A DNA stretch of 63,190 nucleotides, counting the filler, from Albugo candida (lineage: Eukaryota): assembly GCA_040437565.1 (NCBI GenBank). It is 46 parts of 46 records of this genome, joined end to end, with 100 filler letters (N's around TTAATTAATTAA, not from the genome) between each part and the next. Parts side by side here need not be neighbours in the genome. Positions count along the whole stretch, not along the records: positions 29,361 to 30,635 come from JBDOQK010000576.1; 45 more parts are not named here. One strand, given 5' to 3'. How positions within the stretch are numbered: the stretch's first letter is position 1; the number at the start of each line of letters is the position of its first letter. The position numbers were made by a program, and so were the translations under genes. Shown piece after piece: positions 29,261-40,228 of the stretch. The notes beneath the pieces are model-generated. The model was not told the DNA's origin. It worked only from the letters and a program-made list of their open reading frames with translations, and searched no databases.

Positions 29261-29737
29261 NNNNNNNNNNNNNNNNNNNNNNNNNNNNNNNNNNNNNNNN
29301 NNNNTTAATTAATTAANNNNNNNNNNNNNNNNNNNNNNNNNNNNNNNNNNNNNNNNNNNNAACAGCAGTTTTTTCATATATTGTTTGTGTCAATGAAAAC
29401 CATGTTAAAGATTTCTTTGCTTTGAACGAACCCAGACCAGCTTGATAGAACTGAAAGAAAAGTGGTTCCCGTTCAGCTAGGTAACCAGACTAAACTTTGT
29501 AATGTGTTTTGATCAACAATAGTAATGGTCTACAAAAACGTTCTCGAGTATAAAAACTATACTAGACTATAATCTAGGCAGTCTTAGTTGCAGTGTGAGC
29601 TATTTAAGGCTGGAGACCCATTCTTGTTGTTATCGTTATGGTGGGAATTCTGACTCGAAGATTGCGAATAGACCACAGAATATTTTTTTGAGAAAGGCGA
29701 ATTTTAAGAAATAAAGTTCTTATATCTTACAGGATAT

Positions 29738-29945
29738 TGTTGAAGAAAGTCTGATAAGATCAGAGGAGTCGGATACGATAAGAAGAGTCAGATAAGATCA
29801 GATCATTTGTAGTGCGAAAAATTAGATTAGAAATAGGTTACTAATAGCATAGAGTAGCGATAGAGAGAATGGTGTATAGGCTGAGGCTATCTTTTTGAGA
29901 ACTAAGGACCGACAAATATAGTCACTTTCGAACTTGAGTACAAGA
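29738..29945 (+). mobile_element. 5' LTR of a Ty1/Copia element
   Basis: TGTTG...CAAGA (near-inverted ends) directly before a PBS and gag; shares AACTAAGGACC..AAATAT..CACTTT with the LTR at about 36745. Confidence 0.65.
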
Positions 29946-29959
29946 GGTTAACAGCCACA
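29946..29959 (+). promoter_or_regulatory. Primer-binding site complementary to the tRNA-Asn(GUU) anticodon arm
   Basis: GGTTAACAGCCACA is the reverse complement of TGTGG-CT-GTT-AA-CC; it lies between the LTR end and the gag ATG (29997). Confidence 0.7.
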
Positions 29960-29996
29960 ACTCTTGTTTTTCTCAAAACTACCAACTCTAGCAAAA

Positions 29997-30635
29997 ATGG
30001 ATATATTGAGAGAAGACAATTACTTAGGCTGAGACTTCAGTGCTCGAATGCAGCTGCTGCGTAAGGGGTTGCTAGACCACAAAAACCCGGTAAAAACCCC
30101 AAGCGAGGATGACAGAGCGTGGAGATTTGGAAGGTCAAAGACATGAAGGCGTTTGCGATCATTTCGACCATGATCAGCCCCAACTTACAGTCTATGGTTA
30201 GATCAGCATGCAGTGCTACTCAAGCATGGAACATCTTGGAGAACTTTTTCTTGACGCGCTCCTTGCACAACAGGATCCAGAAGAAGTGGGAGTTACATGA
30301 GTTCAAGATGAACGCAGCTGGTGGTAGTACTTGGAAGCATGTTCGAAGATTTCGACCAGATTATCAAGATCATGGAGAATGTTCCAGGGATGGACATGTT
30401 TCAAGCGAAGAAAATGCTTCTTCGCGAATCAGAAAGCATCGGGGCCAAGGAAAAGCATGGCATGGCACTCAAAGCGCAGTATAAGCGGCAAAGCAAAGGT
30501 CGAGCAAATAGGCCGAACAGGAATACAGCGAAGTTCGAGGGAAAGTGTTTCCGGTGTAACAAGTATGGTCACAAACAAGCGGATTGTTGGAGAAGTAACA
30601 AGGCCGACAGCGAGGAAGCCCATGCATTCACAATT
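29997..30635 (+). pseudogene. Ty1/Copia gag (Retrotran_gag_2/UBN2 plus CCHC knuckle), degraded
   Basis: ILREDNY..RMQLLRKGLLDH; WKVKDMKAFAII..AWNILE; CFRCNKYGHKQADC; stop, frameshifts and an internal deletion. Confidence 0.88.
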
Positions 30636-30735: not shown

Positions 30736-31900
30736 TATTGTAATAAACTACTGCAGGATACCTTTTTTTATATTTTACCGAATTTTTTAAAACATGTAAA
30801 TATGGATAATGAATAGGCGTCATGTCATTCGAATATTCAATTTTTAAGAATATGCTATCATTTGTTGTTGTTGTTGTTGTTGTTCCATATTGATAAAAAT
30901 GTTTTACATATCTAAACATATCATCTTCTCTTGATATTTTACCAAACAAATCAAAATTGTTCATTTTTGAAATATATTTATAGAATTTTATTAGTACTGA
31001 AGTTGATAATTCAAATTCTGGTTGATGCCTTGAAGCAATAAAGATTGGGTTAAATAATTTTACAACGAGATTGTTTAAATTAGGAAACTTGTGCATTAGA
31101 TACTGAATTGAAGCGTCAGTTACAATAATATTTGATCCTACAAATGATTTGACTCTAGAAAGTATAACTACTGGGGCCAAGTTGTTATTATTATTATCAA
31201 CCACTCTCTCAACAAAATTGTTATTATAAACAGTGTATGTTAGATGAGTGACTGTTGGAGAACATTTGTTTATAATATTTTCTAGCTCAAATACGTTTTT
31301 ATGCGTCAATACAAGCATTTCTAAATCCTCTAATACAGAAAACGAATCTAGCTGATTTACCAGTGTATTATTTTCTATTGCATCCCCATTTGCTTTTATG
31401 TTTCCAATGTAAAGGCGTTTTATTGACTTTTGTAATGTTAATACAGTTTTTATATAATATTGCATATCTTGATGATTTGTTGGTCTTGGTATCTCTTGCA
31501 AGAATTTTAAATAATATCGATTTTTTTCAATCGTTTGATAAAATGGAAATTTTGAATCATGTTGAGCAGAAAGAACTTCAAGATTTGGACAAAGCTTTAT
31601 TAAACTTTCAAAGGTATACACTGTACCTTGTCGGTGAGTAAATTCCATTAAAAAAAAGGTTTCCATATTAATTCTTTTCACTAGTTTTCCTCGATAAGAA
31701 GCCTTTTTAAATAGCTTAATCAATTTTTCTGCAGTTGAAATCTTTCCACCTTCAATAGTAATAGCTTTATAAAATTGTTCTTGTGAAGCTTTATACCAAG
31801 TTGAACAAGTTAATTGTAATTGAGCAAGATCAGTTTTACAATCGACATGAGAAAAGATGAGCAAAAGTATTTCGTATGGTAAATGTATCCAAGAATTCAT
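30736..31900 (-). CDS. F-box protein with RNI/LRR-like region (3' partial)
   Basis: WIHLPYEILLLIFSHV..LQLTCSTW F-box; LIKLCPNLEVL and KFPNLNNL repeats; resembles the expanded Mucorales family. Confidence 0.85.
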
Positions 31901-32356
31901 CGTGTGTGTGTGTGTGTAAATAGTATAATAATAAAGGGTTAAAGCAACAACCATAAATGGTCCAATATTTATTGTAACATAATAAATGTATTACTTTTAG
32001 CCATGATCCANNNNNNNNNNNNNNNNNNNNNNNNNNNNNNNNNNNNNNNNNNNNTTAATTAATTAANNNNNNNNNNNNNNNNNNNNNNNNNNNNNNNNNN
32101 NNNNNNNNNNACTGCCGGATTCACATACCAACCATTCATACTGTAGCATGAGCAGCAAATAGCGAATAAATATGCGAACGTATGGCATAATGCTTTTAAG
32201 TTTATGCGGACTTGATATGCAACTTGTTACTCAAATATTTTCATTCAGACGAGTTCATTGACTATGTTTAGATTATCTACCGATGAGACATCGCTATCGA
32301 CCATGCGGCTGCGTCACGTTTCGCAATTTACGCACAGTGACTACGATGTGAAAGAA

Positions 32357-32429
32357 TATCAGTGGAGGGGATTGAACCCTCGATCTTAAGCGTGTTAAGC
32401 TTACGTCCTAACCACTAGACGACACTGAC
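32357..32429 (-). tRNA. tRNA-Val(AAC)
   Basis: Cloverleaf: GTCAGTG/CACTGAT acceptor stem, TAAGC-TT-AAC-AC-GCTTA anticodon arm, GAGGG-TTCAATC-CCCTC T arm. Confidence 0.95.
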
Positions 32430-33162: not shown

Positions 33163-33235
33163 GCGCGGTTGGCGCAATGGATAGCGTATCAGACTTCGAA
33201 TCTGGGGGTTGCGGGTTCGAGTCCCGCATCGCGTA
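33163..33235 (+). tRNA. tRNA-Arg(TCG)
   Basis: GCGCGGT/ATCGCGT acceptor stem, TCAGA-CT-TCG-AA-TCTGG anticodon arm, GCGGG-TTCGAGT-CCCGC T arm. Confidence 0.95.
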
Positions 33236-33733
33236 CATTTTGCATGTTCAACACTATATCGTCCGTCCCCCAATCGCTTGCCCTGGGTACTTTGAATGCT
33301 ACATATAACCTTCTCGACCGAGTTGTATGACATCGTAGTTGAACGGAACAAGGGGAATAGACCACAAACTGAAGTGCCATTCGGNNNNNNNNNNNNNNNN
33401 NNNNNNNNNNNNNNNNNNNNNNNNNNNNTTAATTAATTAANNNNNNNNNNNNNNNNNNNNNNNNNNNNNNNNNNNNNNNNNNNNAAATAGAACAAGGATG
33501 GACTCATGCGTCATCAACAAACGACAACCACGGCGTAGGATTTATTACGGTTTCGATACTAAAGTCAATTCGAAAAAGCGATCAACACTGTCATGGCGTT
33601 GTCCAATGTTTGGGGTTGCTGATCTGGCCGTCGCCTTCTCTGAGCCAATCACTCGTACCGATGATATCCGTAGCCTTTATTTAAATTTGCTCACTTTTGA
33701 ATTTCCTTTTCTCAATAAGTTGCAATCGATACC

Positions 33734-34855: not shown

Positions 34856-36125
34856 CGTGTACTTTCGTATGCCCTCCGCCCAAGATTTGTATGGGAATCA
34901 AATGTCTTCAAAGCACGCTGCTAATAGGTAATATATATCACGACATCCTTTAAAAGCATCATCTAATGTATCAACTCTTTATAGATATTTTGTAGAGGAA
35001 GGCGTCTTCTATGGCCCAGGACATGGTATGGTCTGTCAAAACGGAGAAGAAATGGCTATGGTGTATAGTAATGACAATTTGCCTAATGGGGAAATTCGCG
35101 GCTTGGTGTGGAGATGCACTAAGCATGGGTGCTGCAACCAAAGCAGAGTTTCTGTTCGTCACCAGTCTTTCTTTGCGTTCAAAAGAGCTCCTTTGACGAC
35201 TCAATTTATGGTTCTTTACTTCTGGTTAGCCAAATGCAGCAACGAGACTATCAACATGATCACCGGTGCTCATGCTCGTACTATCAGAGAACTAATTATT
35301 GATTTTCAATATATGATGGAGGCCGATGTCAGAGATGGTGACATTCGAATTGGTATGTTCATGAATAATGGCATGTACAACTGTAAGATAATAATATAAT
35401 TTATACTATTATTAGGCGGGCCTGGAATTATTGTGGAGATCGATGAGTCGAAGTTTGGTAAGAGAAAGTATCACCGTGGTGCTCGTGTTGATGGTGTGTG
35501 GGTCGTTGGTGGTGTCGAAAGAACTGATGAAAGAAAAGTTTTTTTGACAACTGTCGTTAACAGAACTTCAGATACGATGAGGGGTATCATTGAACAATTC
35601 GTATTACCAGGTTCAATCATCCATACCGATTGCTGGAGGGCCTATAACGTAATTGAGCAAATGGGTAGAAACTATACGCATTACACTGTAAATCACTCTG
35701 AAGGCTTCTTGGAATTCAACAACGGTGTACCCATTCATACCAACACTATTGAAGGTAAACTTTACTGTTCATTACAGAATAAAACATCACTTATTTACAA
35801 CTTTATTTATCATTATAGGCACTTGGTTGGGTATCAAATTGAGATGTTTTCCTAGACATCGCACCAAAAAGAACATGCCTTGGAAACTGGTGGAGTTTAT
35901 CTGGCGTAGAAAACACTTTGGTAACATCTTCGGTGGAATGATTACTACCTTGCGCGAGGTCACTTTGGGAAGAGAACGCCATGACCCTGAGTGGGCTCAT
36001 TACACTCCTTATAGTGAAAGAAACGAAGTAGAAACTGAAGAAGTAGATGAAGAGCAAATTGGTGATCCAGTAGAAGAAGTTGAAGAAGTAATTGAAGAAG
36101 TAGAAGAAAATCCTGAAGAAGTAGA
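34856..36125 (+). mobile_element. Merlin (IS1595/ISXO2-like) DDE transposase with three introns
   Basis: Spliced product gives IGGPGIIVEIDESKFGKRKYHRG, IHTDCWRAY, HTNTIEGTW; GT-AG introns at 34928-34984, 35353-35415 and 35755-35818. Confidence 0.95.
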
Positions 36126-36443
36126 NNNNNNNNNNNNNNNNNNNNNNNNNNNNNNNNNNNNNNNNNNNNTTAATTAATTAANNNNNNNNNNNNNNNNNNN
36201 NNNNNNNNNNNNNNNNNNNNNNNNNATTGCGACCAAGCAATTTCAAAATCTTGTCGGCAATCCTGGATTAGAAATTCCAAGTCGAGGGGGAGTGTTACGC
36301 AAAACAGTCCTGACTCTATGTAGAGGCTTTTAGAAGAATTCTCTGAGAACATTCAGGGAAGTTCTTGATCATAACACATGAAGATTACTAATGTGAGTCA
36401 TGTTACAAATGTAAGTAACGTTGGTAACATTACTTTAAAGAAT

Positions 36444-36809
36444 AGTTGGAATAAGGCTTAGATTAGCTAATAGTGAACTAAGGAACTTAATATTAAGATC
36501 ACTTTCATATTTTCTTCTTTGCACACAAGACTTAATAATGTAGATGTTGGCATCATTTCAGTTCTCTTATGTCGCAATGAAATCAGCCAATGATAAGATC
36601 GGAAAAGGGTTCCGCCAATCGGATGCTGATATTTGAGGTCAAGAAACAATGTAAAGACAGTGCATCATATTCCACCAATCGAGATTGATACAGCGGAGCT
36701 TATAAGACAATGCGTAAAGGCTAGGGCTTAGAATAGTAACAACAACTAAGGACCCTAAAATATCCACTTTCTATTTTACCAACGAAAACAACAACAGGTC
36801 ATGGGCCCA
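36444..36809 (+). mobile_element. Copia 5' LTR (start uncertain) and half-tRNA-iMet PBS
   Basis: ...CAACA|GGTCATGGGCCCA (36797-36809), one mismatch from the copia-type PBS GGTTATGGGCCCA. Confidence 0.75.
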
Positions 36810-36859
36810 AGCTCACTCGAATTGAGATCCAGCGTCAGTCGTAAATACAGTCTTGAATA

Positions 36860-37493
36860 ATGAACGATCCAACAGCGATACTCAATGAAGATAATTAATA
36901 TTTCGTTTGGGAATTTAATACTCGACTCAAGCTGATGAAGACAGGTCTGTTGGACCACATTGATGCAACTAAAGTACCAATTGCTGAAAATCAAGTCCCT
37001 GAATGATGGAGAGTCACTGACTTGTAAAAAAGGCATTCGATACAATATCGATATCAATCGGTATAAGTTTTCAATCATTGATCAGGAATGCTCGTACAGC
37101 CTCCGAAGTGTGGGAAATACTGCAAAGCTTTCATCTGATAAGGAACATCCATAATCGTGTGCAAAAGAAAAAGGAATTACACCAGTTTAAGCTTGTCAAA
37201 ATTGGAAATATAATGCACCACTTTCAAAACTTTGATGATTTATGCCTATCAATGGAAGCATTGGGTGATGGTATGAGCGAGGACGAAAAGTTGGTAATAT
37301 TGCTGGGACGTCTATCGGATGAATATGATCAGATAAGTAAGATCATTGAAAACATTCAAGCGATCAATATTTTACAGGCTAAAGAAATGCTCCGCAGAGA
37401 GCTTGAAGGACTACAAAGAAAGGAAGCTAATGAAGTGGCGTTGCGTGCTACGAAGTACAAGAACAAAGGTCCCCATAGAGAATGGAATGGGAT
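36860..37493 (+). pseudogene. Ty1/Copia gag, degraded
   Basis: ILNEDN*YFVWEFNTRLKLMKTGLLDH; SEVWEILQ..HNRVQKKKELHQFK; EKLVILLGRLSDEY; homologous to the gag at 29997. Confidence 0.88.
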
Positions 37494-39022: not shown

Positions 39023-39324
39023 GAGTGTCGACCATATTTCTAGCAGTTGCGTGTAGGGGGGTTTGGGGGGCTCGCCCCCCAAGAACAATTCAAGCAGTTG
39101 AATGACGACTGTATTTCTGGCAGTTGAGTGAAGATTGTATTTTGAAATTAAACGTGCAGTATTTATAAGCCGATTGCCTTTTATATTTTTTTTTCACGTT
39201 TCGAATTTATTTTCACCCCTTTCTCTTTCGAATATTTTTTTAACCTGAATTAAATACTATTAAGTGAGAACCTATAGCCAATAAACAACTTGAAAAAAAT
39301 AAAACTAACTAATTCTATTTAAAG

Positions 39325-40228
39325 ATGCCAGCACAAAGAATATCATCAAGAGTTTGTCGCGATTGTAACCAATCAGGACATGCAAGCCGTAGAAGTAGAC
39401 CTTGCACCTTAAGAGTGGAATTATTGTGTGGATCGTGTGGTAGATCAGGTCATGCAACTTCAAGATCGCAACATTGTGAAAACTATGCTGCCAACAGTCG
39501 TAATGCCGAAGTAGAAAGTGAACAAGTCGAGGAATTTGAACCAATTGTGGAAACTGAAGATGGAGATGTAGTAATGGAAGATCTTACCTTGAATATTGCG
39601 AAATATTCTAATAGACTTCCGACAGAAAGAGATGATAAAGGGCGTATGTGTGAAGTGTGTGCTGAGTGTGGATCAAATATGTGGTTGAGTGAGAGAGTTA
39701 TTCGATCCTCTAAGAGAAACCCTGTTTTTCATTTATGCTGCAATAAAGGCAACGTTTCCCTTGCTCCTTTAATGCCGACTCCACCTTTAATTGCACGATT
39801 ATTAACTGAGAAATCACCTGTTGCTGAGGAATTTAAAAAACATATCCGTTCTTACAACAGTGCATTGAGTTTCAGTTCAATGGGTGTAAACCTTGACCAA
39901 AGATATGCAAATTCACGTACTGGCAGTTATACGTTTCGTATTCAAGGCAGTGTCTATCATCGCATTGGTGGTATAAATCCTGAAGCAGGTGAAACACCTA
40001 AATTTGCACAAATTTACGTCTACGATGCTGAAAACGAACTTGAAAATCGTCACAGTGCTGTTTCTCATATTTGTAAAGAAACTTTATTGACACTTCAAAA
40101 TTTAATGCACCAAGTAAATCCTTTCGTGCAACATTTTAAAAATATGTCTGAAATTGTAGCAACCCAAACCCAACAAAACAATGAGGATGGTATTGAATCA
40201 TTACCAGAAATAAAAATGGTTTTCAGAG
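39325..40228 (+). mobile_element. Helitron Rep/helicase N-terminal region (partial)
   Basis: Two CxxC..GH..C knuckles; CAECGS.MW..ER..CCNKG; YNSALSFSSMG; FRIQGSVYHRIG; PKFAQIYVYD. Confidence 0.93.

What the first reader, a model, noticed from the sequence alone, without database searches (positions are those of the whole stretch)
29738..30635. Copia element apparently primed by a tRNA-Asn half-molecule
Seen: directly after the LTR end (CAAGA) is GGTTAACAGCCACA, with no TGG start, so it is not a tRNA 3'-end PBS. Its complement TGTGG-CT-GTT-AA-CC is an anticodon stem-loop with the Asn anticodon GTT. Known: Drosophila copia and yeast Ty5 prime from a tRNA-iMet fragment cut in the anticodon stem, and the copia PBS GGTTATGGGCCCAG has exactly the same register. 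Inference: this lineage has moved half-tRNA priming to tRNA-Asn. Non-Met fragment primers are known in some Candida elements; I do not know of an Asn case.
Basis: partly seen in the sequence, partly recalled or inferred. Interest (0 to 1): 0.8.

Follow-up and report, generated by a model that had tools for sequence, protein, structure and literature searches.

The report
Copia retrotransposon with tRNA-Asn half-primer site
A dead, cut-off copy of a copia-type jumping gene from a white-rust oomycete carries, just after its terminal repeat, a 14-base primer site that matches the anticodon arm of asparagine tRNA instead of the usual initiator methionine tRNA, a variant of a priming trick already described in other organisms.

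Summary
The sequence is as described. GGTTAACAGCCACA lies at 29946-29959, after a roughly 205-bp LTR that starts with TGTTG at 29738. A frameshifted copia-type gag follows. No TGG-type PBS is present. The LTR probably ends at ...TACA (29942/3), which leaves a 2-3 nt spacer.

The reverse complement of the 14-mer is identical to positions 27-40 of real tRNA-Asn(GUU) genes. These include eukaryote-type genes, one of them on a moss nuclear contig. This is the same register as the iMet half-tRNA site of copia.

The family is multicopy in four sequencing runs. No well-supported variant was listed in the PBS. A second copia fragment in the same window (36797-36809) has an iMet-type half-tRNA site.

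The gag relatives are named Albugo laibachii polyproteins. The host's own tRNA-Asn could not be obtained, so the match to the host is inferred.

Half-tRNA priming with non-Met tRNAs is already in print: Arg in Candida, Lys in FunCo1, Ile in plant Bianca, and Tyr, Ile and "Asn-GTT" in rust-fungus Copia/Helenus.

Verdict: a real feature and a new member of a known kind. Interest is modest.

The parts
29738..29942 (+). 5' LTR (about 205 bp), TGTTG...TACA. The 3' end is uncertain within 29942-29945.
   Evidence: Sequence. In one search, X1 record 2 begins at 29738, and X13 record 12 and X4 record 29 end at 29943. Summed contig depth there is many times that of the contig carrying this locus.
29943..29945 (+). 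[quoted passage not shown] It would be part of the LTR if the LTR ends at 29945.
   Evidence: Gaps of 2-10 bp between LTR and PBS are reported for other elements (PMC4139406).
29946..29959 (+). Minus-strand primer binding site GGTTAACAGCCACA, complementary to tRNA-Asn(GUU) positions 27-40: the 5' strand of the anticodon stem, the loop, and C39-C40.
29940..29967 (+). Inverted repeat ACAAGAG / CTCTTGT that would place the PBS in a 14-nt loop. Not statistically supported.
   Evidence: For the 101-nt fold, z = -1.32, and 21 of 200 shuffles fold at least as well.
29997..30635 (+). Degenerate copia-type gag. It has an in-frame TGA at 30030-30032 where relatives have W, at least two frame changes, and an internal deletion. 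It is cut off by the contig end.
   Evidence: (PF14223, E 1.5e-12).
30540..30587 (+). CCHC zinc knuckle of gag (C-X2-C-X4-H-X4-C).
   Evidence: translation. In one search, PF00098 scores E 0.0072 and 16.8 bits, below the 20.8-bit cut-off.

Best explanation
This is the 5' end of a dead, contig-truncated copy of a multicopy Ty1/copia family of an Albugo-like oomycete. It comprises the LTR, the PBS and a broken gag. In working members of the family, minus-strand DNA synthesis would be primed by a 5' fragment of cytoplasmic tRNA-Asn(GUU) cut in the 3' strand of the anticodon stem after C40, not by the 3' CCA end of a tRNA. The last 14 nt of that fragment (positions 27-40) anneal to GGTTAACAGCCACA. 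Reverse transcriptase then copies the 2-3 nt spacer and U5. The mechanism is that of copia, Ty5 and the hemiviruses, with tRNA-Asn in place of initiator tRNA-Met. Shown here: the sequence, the copia-type gag, the multicopy status, and exact complementarity to real tRNA-Asn genes of eukaryotic type. Inferred: that the host tRNA-Asn has this arm, that a fragment ending at C40 exists, and that it primes. The complementarity stops exactly before position 26. The idea that position 26 is a modified base which blocks copying of the primer comes from my recalled knowledge of tRNA modification and was not tested.
For: (1) The gag is copia-type: PF14223 at E 1.5e-12. Its closest proteins are four 'Putative polyprotein, Albugo laibachii Nc14' entries and one unnamed protein, at 83-91% identity.
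(2) There is no TGG between the LTR and the ATG.
(3) The reverse complement of the 14-mer, followed by a T-loop motif, hits 78 viral-contig loci. Of those, 20 of the 20 examined are tRNA-Asn(gtt). The next 3 nt complete the stem, ACA in 63 of 78 and GCA in 13 of 78.
Of these, 84 have no encoded CCA and a T4 run within 20 nt downstream, and 56 belong to one GCTGGA[AG]T... family. ARAGORN finds tRNA-Asn(gtt) in 19 of 20 loci examined. One locus of that family, L175, lies beside a gene whose best named relatives are Sphagnum proteins at 87% and 78% identity. So a land-plant nuclear tRNA-Asn has exactly this 14-mer at positions 27-40.
(5) Published antisense probes for animal tRNA-Asn contain the 11-nt core GGTTAACAGCC.
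(6) The register agrees with known cases. A published anti-iMet probe reads ...GGTTATGGGCCCA. A second copia fragment in this window has GGTCATGGGCCCA directly after its LTR's ...ACA. Its gag is 40-49% identical to this family's.
(7) The family is multicopy. Summed contig depth over 29920-29962 is 563, 614 and 97 in X1, X4 and X13, against 33, 13 and 5.5 for the contigs that carry this very locus. None of the 40 listed variant positions falls between 29912 and 29977, while flanking positions such as 29911 and 29978 vary.
(8) Anticodon-arm PBSs for non-Met tRNAs are documented in Copia elements.
Against: The host's own tRNA-Asn was never seen. No genome is held, and the element's family is absent from the metagenome and viral collections. 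Animal tRNA-Asn matches only 11 of the 14 nt, so the arm is not universal. One search lists only 40 of 174 variant positions, so rarer PBS variants cannot be excluded. This copy is dead and has no 3' LTR or PPT here, so activity of the family is not shown. The LTR end is not exact, which leaves a 2-3 nt spacer that copia itself (as I recall it) lacks. No RNA data were examined.
Confidence: 0.7

Rival explanations
1. The site is a true PBS, but the primer is something other than a host tRNA-Asn fragment. Candidates are another small RNA, self-priming from the element's own 5' end (Tf1-like), or a hairpin-dependent mechanism like the conserved hairpin site of fungal GalEa.
For: The PBS is flanked by a 7-bp inverted repeat, ACAAGAG/CTCTTGT. 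Fungal GalEa Copia elements replace the PBS with a conserved hairpin (PMC5445492). The host tRNA is unverified.
Against: No LTR sequence is complementary to the 14-mer. The longest LTR-to-leader complementarity is 9 nt, lies outside the PBS, and is reached by 60 of 1000 shuffles. The hairpin fold is not significant (z -1.32). An exact 14/14 match to real tRNA-Asn arms would be an unexplained coincidence.
Confidence: 0.1
2. The resemblance is chance, or this is a decayed Met-type PBS in a dead element. Under this view the 14-mer has no Asn-specific function.
For: This copy is degenerate, with a stop and frameshifts. Only one copy could be read base by base.
Against: The 14-mer differs from the Met-type site quoted in the finding at 6 of 14 positions, yet matches tRNA-Asn at 14 of 14. 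The exact 14-mer occurs once in 63 kb. The region shows no well-supported variant across a multicopy family in 4 runs, while its flanks vary.
Confidence: 0.05
3. The element belongs to, or was recently acquired from, the plant host (contamination or horizontal transfer), and its PBS reflects plant tRNA-Asn.
For: The exact arm was confirmed here on a land-plant nuclear contig. The contig is a 1.3-kb unplaced piece of an assembly of an obligate plant parasite.
Against: All named gag relatives are Albugo laibachii proteins, and no plant protein appeared among the 5 hits. The runs that hold the element best have contig totals of about 29-38 million letters, far below a plant genome.
Confidence: 0.04

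Closest known systems
Drosophila copia, yeast Ty5 and the ICTV genus Hemivirus
   Same: Ty1/copia-type element. The PBS has no TGG, lies next to the 5' LTR, and is complementary to the anticodon stem-loop in the same register (the antisense begins GGTTA...). [quoted passage not shown]
   Different: The tRNA is Asn(GUU), not initiator Met. There is a 2-3 nt spacer after the LTR. The host is an oomycete. The pol region was not available, so phylogenetic placement is untested.
Rust-fungus Copia families and Helenus TRIMs (Kojima 2024, PMC10886601)
   Same: [quoted passage not shown]
   Different: The host phylum differs (basidiomycete fungi rather than an oomycete). The paper is inconsistent, writing tRNA-Asp in two places and tRNA-Asn-GTT in one, and its Figure 3 and supplements were not visible. 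I could not compare sequences.
Candida albicans Tca2 (gamma) and related families
   Same: The PBS is homologous to an internal region of a non-Met tRNA, tRNA-Arg(UCU). Short gaps between LTR and PBS are noted (PMC4139406, passages).
   Different: A different tRNA and a different host.
FunCo1 fungal Copia clade and the plant Bianca lineage
   Same: The FunCo1 PBS is complementary to an internal region of tRNA-Lys (PMC5445492). Bianca uses a half tRNA-Ile (PMC6317226). In both, primer identity is a lineage character.
   Different: Different tRNAs. Neither paper's visible text reports a half tRNA-Asn, and their additional files were not visible.

Membership tests
Ty1/copia (Pseudoviridae) LTR retrotransposon | copia-type Gag | tested here: met
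   PF14223 Retrotran_gag_2 at E 1.5e-12, 47.8 bits against a cut-off of 27. The relative P0001 has PF14223 plus PF22936 Pol_BBD.
Ty1/copia (Pseudoviridae) LTR retrotransposon | Gag nucleocapsid CCHC zinc knuckle | tested here: inconclusive
   The C-X2-C-X4-H-X4-C motif is visible in the translation. PF00098 scores 16.8 bits, below the 20.8 cut-off.
Ty1/copia (Pseudoviridae) LTR retrotransposon | Pol domain order PR-IN-RT-RH | not testable with these tools
   The contig ends at 30635, inside gag. No genome is held.
Ty1/copia (Pseudoviridae) LTR retrotransposon | Two LTRs (TG...CA) with a target-site duplication and a PPT | tested here: inconclusive
   Only the 5' LTR is present. It begins with TG and most likely ends in CA at 29941-29942. 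No 3' LTR is in the window.
Half-tRNA-primed Copia (Hemivirus-type priming) | The PBS is complementary to the anticodon stem-loop (about positions 27-40) rather than to the tRNA 3' end | tested here: met
   14/14 to tRNA-Asn(gtt) genes. Of the loci examined, 20 of 20 (from 78) and 19 of 20 (from 119) are tRNA-Asn by ARAGORN, with the anticodon at position 34-36.
Half-tRNA-primed Copia (Hemivirus-type priming) | Complementarity to the host's own tRNA | not testable with these tools
Half-tRNA-primed Copia (Hemivirus-type priming) | A tRNA 5' fragment ending in the anticodon stem serves as the primer | not testable with these tools
   This needs small-RNA or strong-stop cDNA data. None was examined.
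Classical Hemivirus (copia, Ty5) | The primer is initiator tRNA-Met | tested here: not met
   The anticodon in the complement is GTT (Asn). The site differs from the Met-type site at 6 of 14 positions.

The most novel reading that the evidence does not exclude
The 14-mer was confirmed here only on viral tRNA-Asn genes and land-plant-type nuclear tRNA-Asn genes, and the element lives in an obligate biotroph of plants. If the oomycete's own tRNA-Asn has a different anticodon stem, the element would be primed by a tRNA-Asn fragment taken up from the host plant. That would make reverse-transcription priming depend on a cross-kingdom RNA. A less bold version, at roughly 0.6, is that an oomycete copia lineage switched its half-tRNA primer from iMet to Asn independently of rust fungi, leaving Met-type and Asn-type sister families side by side in one genome.
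Probability: 0.03. Interest if true: 0.9.

Novelty: new member of a known kind. Interest (0 to 1): 0.3.

Why it matters
Which tRNA primes an LTR element is a stable lineage character and a target of tRNA-fragment-based silencing. Half-tRNA priming is still understood only from copia and Ty5, and the nuclease that cuts the anticodon stem is unknown. This genome holds both a Met-type and an Asn-type family with related gag genes. That gives a natural comparison for asking what determines primer choice, and whether the cut after position 40 is generic. The PBS also makes a testable prediction of the host tRNA-Asn anticodon arm. Because non-Met half-tRNA sites, probably including Asn, are already in print for fungi and plants, the result extends a known pattern to oomycetes and does not overturn anything.

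Tried and rejected
- Host genome: none is held.
- Earlier notes of this scan: nothing by place, by words or by sequence.
- Other copies in the window: none. Repeat search and blastn of the LTR found only the LTR itself. The apparent 1.4-kb tandem repeat is the contig linker.
- Rfam and ARAGORN on the window: only tRNA-Val and tRNA-Arg, with no tRNA-Asn.
- The 19-mer spanning spacer and PBS in viral contigs: 53 hits, all in one conserved coding stretch of prophage-like contigs. This is a single coincidence and is irrelevant.
- Gag-based search for related loci: none confirmed in viral contigs (5 pattern hits) or in metagenome contigs (192 pattern hits).
- Self-priming test: negative.
- Leader hairpin: not significant.
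- Extension of complementarity beyond 14 nt into the D arm of the plant-type tRNA-Asn: none in register (read).
- Attempts to find an oomycete contig among the tRNA hits failed. L132 is viral-like, with a 3749-aa ORF carrying Peptidase_S74. L231 carries a compact gene that looks to me like an Asn/Asp-type tRNA synthetase next to the tRNA, and so looks prokaryotic. That is my reading of the translation, with no family search run.
- Literature: the broad searches were mostly off-topic. The Phytophthora tRNA-fragment paper prints no tRNA-Asn sequence in its main text.
- In print or not: the 14-mer and its reverse complement occur in 0 papers of the library. No paper on oomycete copia PBSs was found (21 papers, listing only; 4 papers, listing only; 3 papers).

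Full report
**What the window is.** The window is not a continuous chromosome piece. It is a chain of about 46 small contigs of roughly 1.3-1.4 kb, joined by N44-TTAATTAATTAA-N44 linkers. This explains the "77-copy, 1.4-kb repeat". The finding lies on the piece 29361-30635. Its end at 30635 is a contig end inside gag, so no pol, PPT or 3' LTR can be seen. No whole genome is held for the window.

**The observation.** One search shows TGTTGAAG... from 29738...GAGTACAAGA to 29945, and GGTTAACAGCCACA at 29946-29959. A 37-nt leader and an ATG at 29997 follow. No TGG occurs between the LTR and the ATG, so there is no conventional 3'-end PBS. The exact 14-mer is unique in the window.

**The coding region.** The region is a copia-type gag: PF14223 at E 1.5e-12, and a visible C-X2-C-X4-H-X4-C knuckle that scores below the Pfam cut-off. 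It is broken. There is a TGA at 30030-30032 where relatives have W. There are at least two frame changes and an internal deletion relative to intact relatives. The nearest proteins are four "Putative polyprotein, Albugo laibachii Nc14" entries and one unnamed protein, at 83-91% identity. The host is therefore an Albugo-like oomycete. This fits run contig totals of about 29-38 million letters and the occurrence of the element in plant and soil metagenome runs.

**Boundaries and copy number.** I laid the Logan contigs of four runs on 29361-30635. Two runs were of "organism A", one of B and one of C.
- One contig from another copy starts its match exactly at 29738 (X1 record 2). This supports the 5' LTR boundary.
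- A 1263-nt contig (X13 record 12) and a short one (X4 record 29) end their match at 29943. X13 record 12 then runs on for about 1 kb unlike the window, as a 3' or solo LTR would.
- Together with the TG...CA rule, this puts the LTR end at ...TACA (29942/3). It leaves (A)GA as a spacer, not "CAAGA directly followed by the PBS".
- Summed contig depth over 29920-29962 is 563, 614 and 97 in X1, X4 and X13. The contigs carrying this very locus have depth 33, 13 and 5.5. Summed depth is not a copy number, but it shows many copies.
- Diverged copies span LTR, PBS and gag in one piece (X13 record 13 and X18 record 20, about 87-88% alike).
- None of the 40 listed variant positions lies between 29912 and 29977. 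Positions 29911, 29978 and 29991-29992 differ in most other copies.
- The tool listed only 40 of 174 variant positions, so rare PBS variants are not excluded.
- The sequence upstream of about 29620 is a different repeat with far higher depth.

If TGTGG-CTGTTAA-CC is positions 27-40 of a tRNA-Asn, then tRNA genes with exactly this string should exist and should continue so as to close the stem.

A scan of viral contigs for the 14-mer plus a T-loop motif gave 78 loci.
- ARAGORN calls tRNA-Asn(gtt) at the match in 20 of the 20 loci examined.
- The next three bases are ACA in 63 of 78 and GCA in 13 of 78, which closes the stem.

- 84 of the 121 have no encoded CCA and a T4 run within 20 nt downstream, as Pol III genes do. 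13 encode CCA.
- 56 belong to one family beginning GCTGGA[AG]T.
- ARAGORN finds tRNA-Asn(gtt) in 19 of 20 loci examined.
- One locus of that family, L175, carries a 511-aa gene whose best named relatives are Sphagnum proteins at 87% and 78% identity. So a land-plant nuclear tRNA-Asn has exactly this 14-mer.

Animal tRNA-Asn, read from published antisense probes, shares only the 11-nt core GGTTAACAGCC. The arm is therefore widespread but not universal. Complementarity to the plant-type tRNA ends exactly at 14 nt. The base before T27 and those upstream do not pair in register.

**Register and a local comparator.** A published anti-iMet probe reads ...GGTTATGGGCCCA. The finding quotes the copia site as GGTTATGGGCCCAG. 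In this same window, the contig 36226-37493 carries a second copia gag: PF14223 at E 3.5e-19, and 40-49% identical to the first family. Its LTR ends ...AACAACA and is followed at once by GGTCATGGGCCCA at 36797-36809. That is a Met-type anticodon-arm site with one difference from the probe, at the base facing position 37. So the same genome holds a Met-type and an Asn-type family, both beginning GGT.A in the same register. This is the strongest local support for a switch of primer within half-tRNA priming.

**Rivals.**
- Self-priming is not supported. Nothing in the LTR is complementary to the 14-mer, and the best LTR-to-leader match (9 nt, outside the PBS) is reached in 60 of 1000 shuffles.
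- A 7-bp inverted repeat, ACAAGAG/CTCTTGT, brackets the PBS. The fold is no better than shuffles (z -1.32).
- A decayed Met-type site is unlikely. It would need 6 changes in 14 that happen to give a perfect Asn arm.
- Plant contamination is unlikely, because all named gag relatives are Albugo proteins.

**What remains inferred.** I could not read the host's tRNA-Asn. The family was absent from viral and metagenome contigs when searched by gag. Both the run search and the read-laying run were used once, which is their cap. During replication the plus strand copies the primer. I therefore expect the site of recently moved copies to mirror the host tRNA, and the conserved 14-mer is then a prediction of the host arm. 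This is inference from the general model of LTR-element replication, which I recalled and did not test. The existence of a fragment ending at C40, and the enzyme that makes it, are unknown.

**What is known.**
- Candida families have PBSs homologous to internal regions of tRNA-Arg(UCU) or iMet, sometimes 2-10 bp from the LTR (PMC4139406, passages).
- Fungal FunCo1 Copia elements have a PBS complementary to an internal region of tRNA-Lys (PMC5445492, passages).
- Plant Osser, Bryco and Gymco-II use half tRNA-Met, and Bianca uses half tRNA-Ile (PMC6317226, passages).
[quoted passage not shown] The text calls that tRNA "tRNA-Asp" twice and "tRNA-Asn-GTT" once. The figure and supplements were not available.
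- I found no paper on oomycete copia PBSs (listings only). The 14-mer is in no paper of the library.

**Verdict.** It is a new member of a known kind, a half-tRNA-primed Copia whose primer is Asn, here in an oomycete, and not a new mechanism. Interest is modest (0.3).

Noticed in passing
window 1-63190 (linkers listed): The window is a concatenation of about 46 contigs of roughly 1.3-1.4 kb, joined by N44-TTAATTAATTAA-N44 linkers in descending length. The apparent 77-copy, 1.4-kb repeat is this linker. Features that touch a linker are cut by contig ends.
   Followed up: yes
window 36226-37493 (PBS 36797-36809, gag ATG 36860): A second, different copia 5' fragment. Its LTR ends ...AACAACA and is followed directly by GGTCATGGGCCCA, an initiator-Met-type anticodon-arm PBS with one difference from a published anti-iMet probe. 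Its gag matches PF14223 at E 3.5e-19 and is 40-49% identical to the first family. It also carries stops or frameshifts and is cut by the contig end.
   Followed up: partly
window 29361-29620: The sequence upstream of the LTR is another repeat with extreme summed contig depth: 36,000-103,000 in X1, against about 33 for a single-locus contig. Other copies continue differently after about 29721-29737. The copia copy therefore sits inside, or next to, a very abundant unidentified repeat.
   Followed up: no
window 32357-32429 (-) and 33163-33236 (+): tRNA-Val(AAC) and tRNA-Arg(TCG) genes lie about 730 bp apart on one small contig. These are the only tRNA genes in the window.
   Followed up: no
window 35400-35855 (+); 39313-40227 (+); 30737-31990 (-): An ISXO2-like DDE transposase fragment (PF12762, E 1.5e-13). 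An F-box-like protein ORF of 418 aa (PF12937, E 3.3e-10). An ORF with repeated CCHC-like knuckles that has no Pfam match. The small contigs are rich in mobile-element debris.
   Followed up: partly
L079-L131 (viral contigs): The 19-mer spanning spacer and PBS occurs exactly in 53 prophage-like contigs, always in the same conserved coding context. This is one coincidental match repeated by homology and is unrelated to the element.
   Followed up: yes
L001-L078 (viral contigs): Many giant-virus MAG contigs and large phage contigs encode tRNA-Asn(gtt) with the same anticodon arm as the plant-type nuclear gene. These genes often sit in clusters with tRNA-Ile(tat), Leu(taa), Gln(ttg) and Arg(tct).
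   Followed up: no
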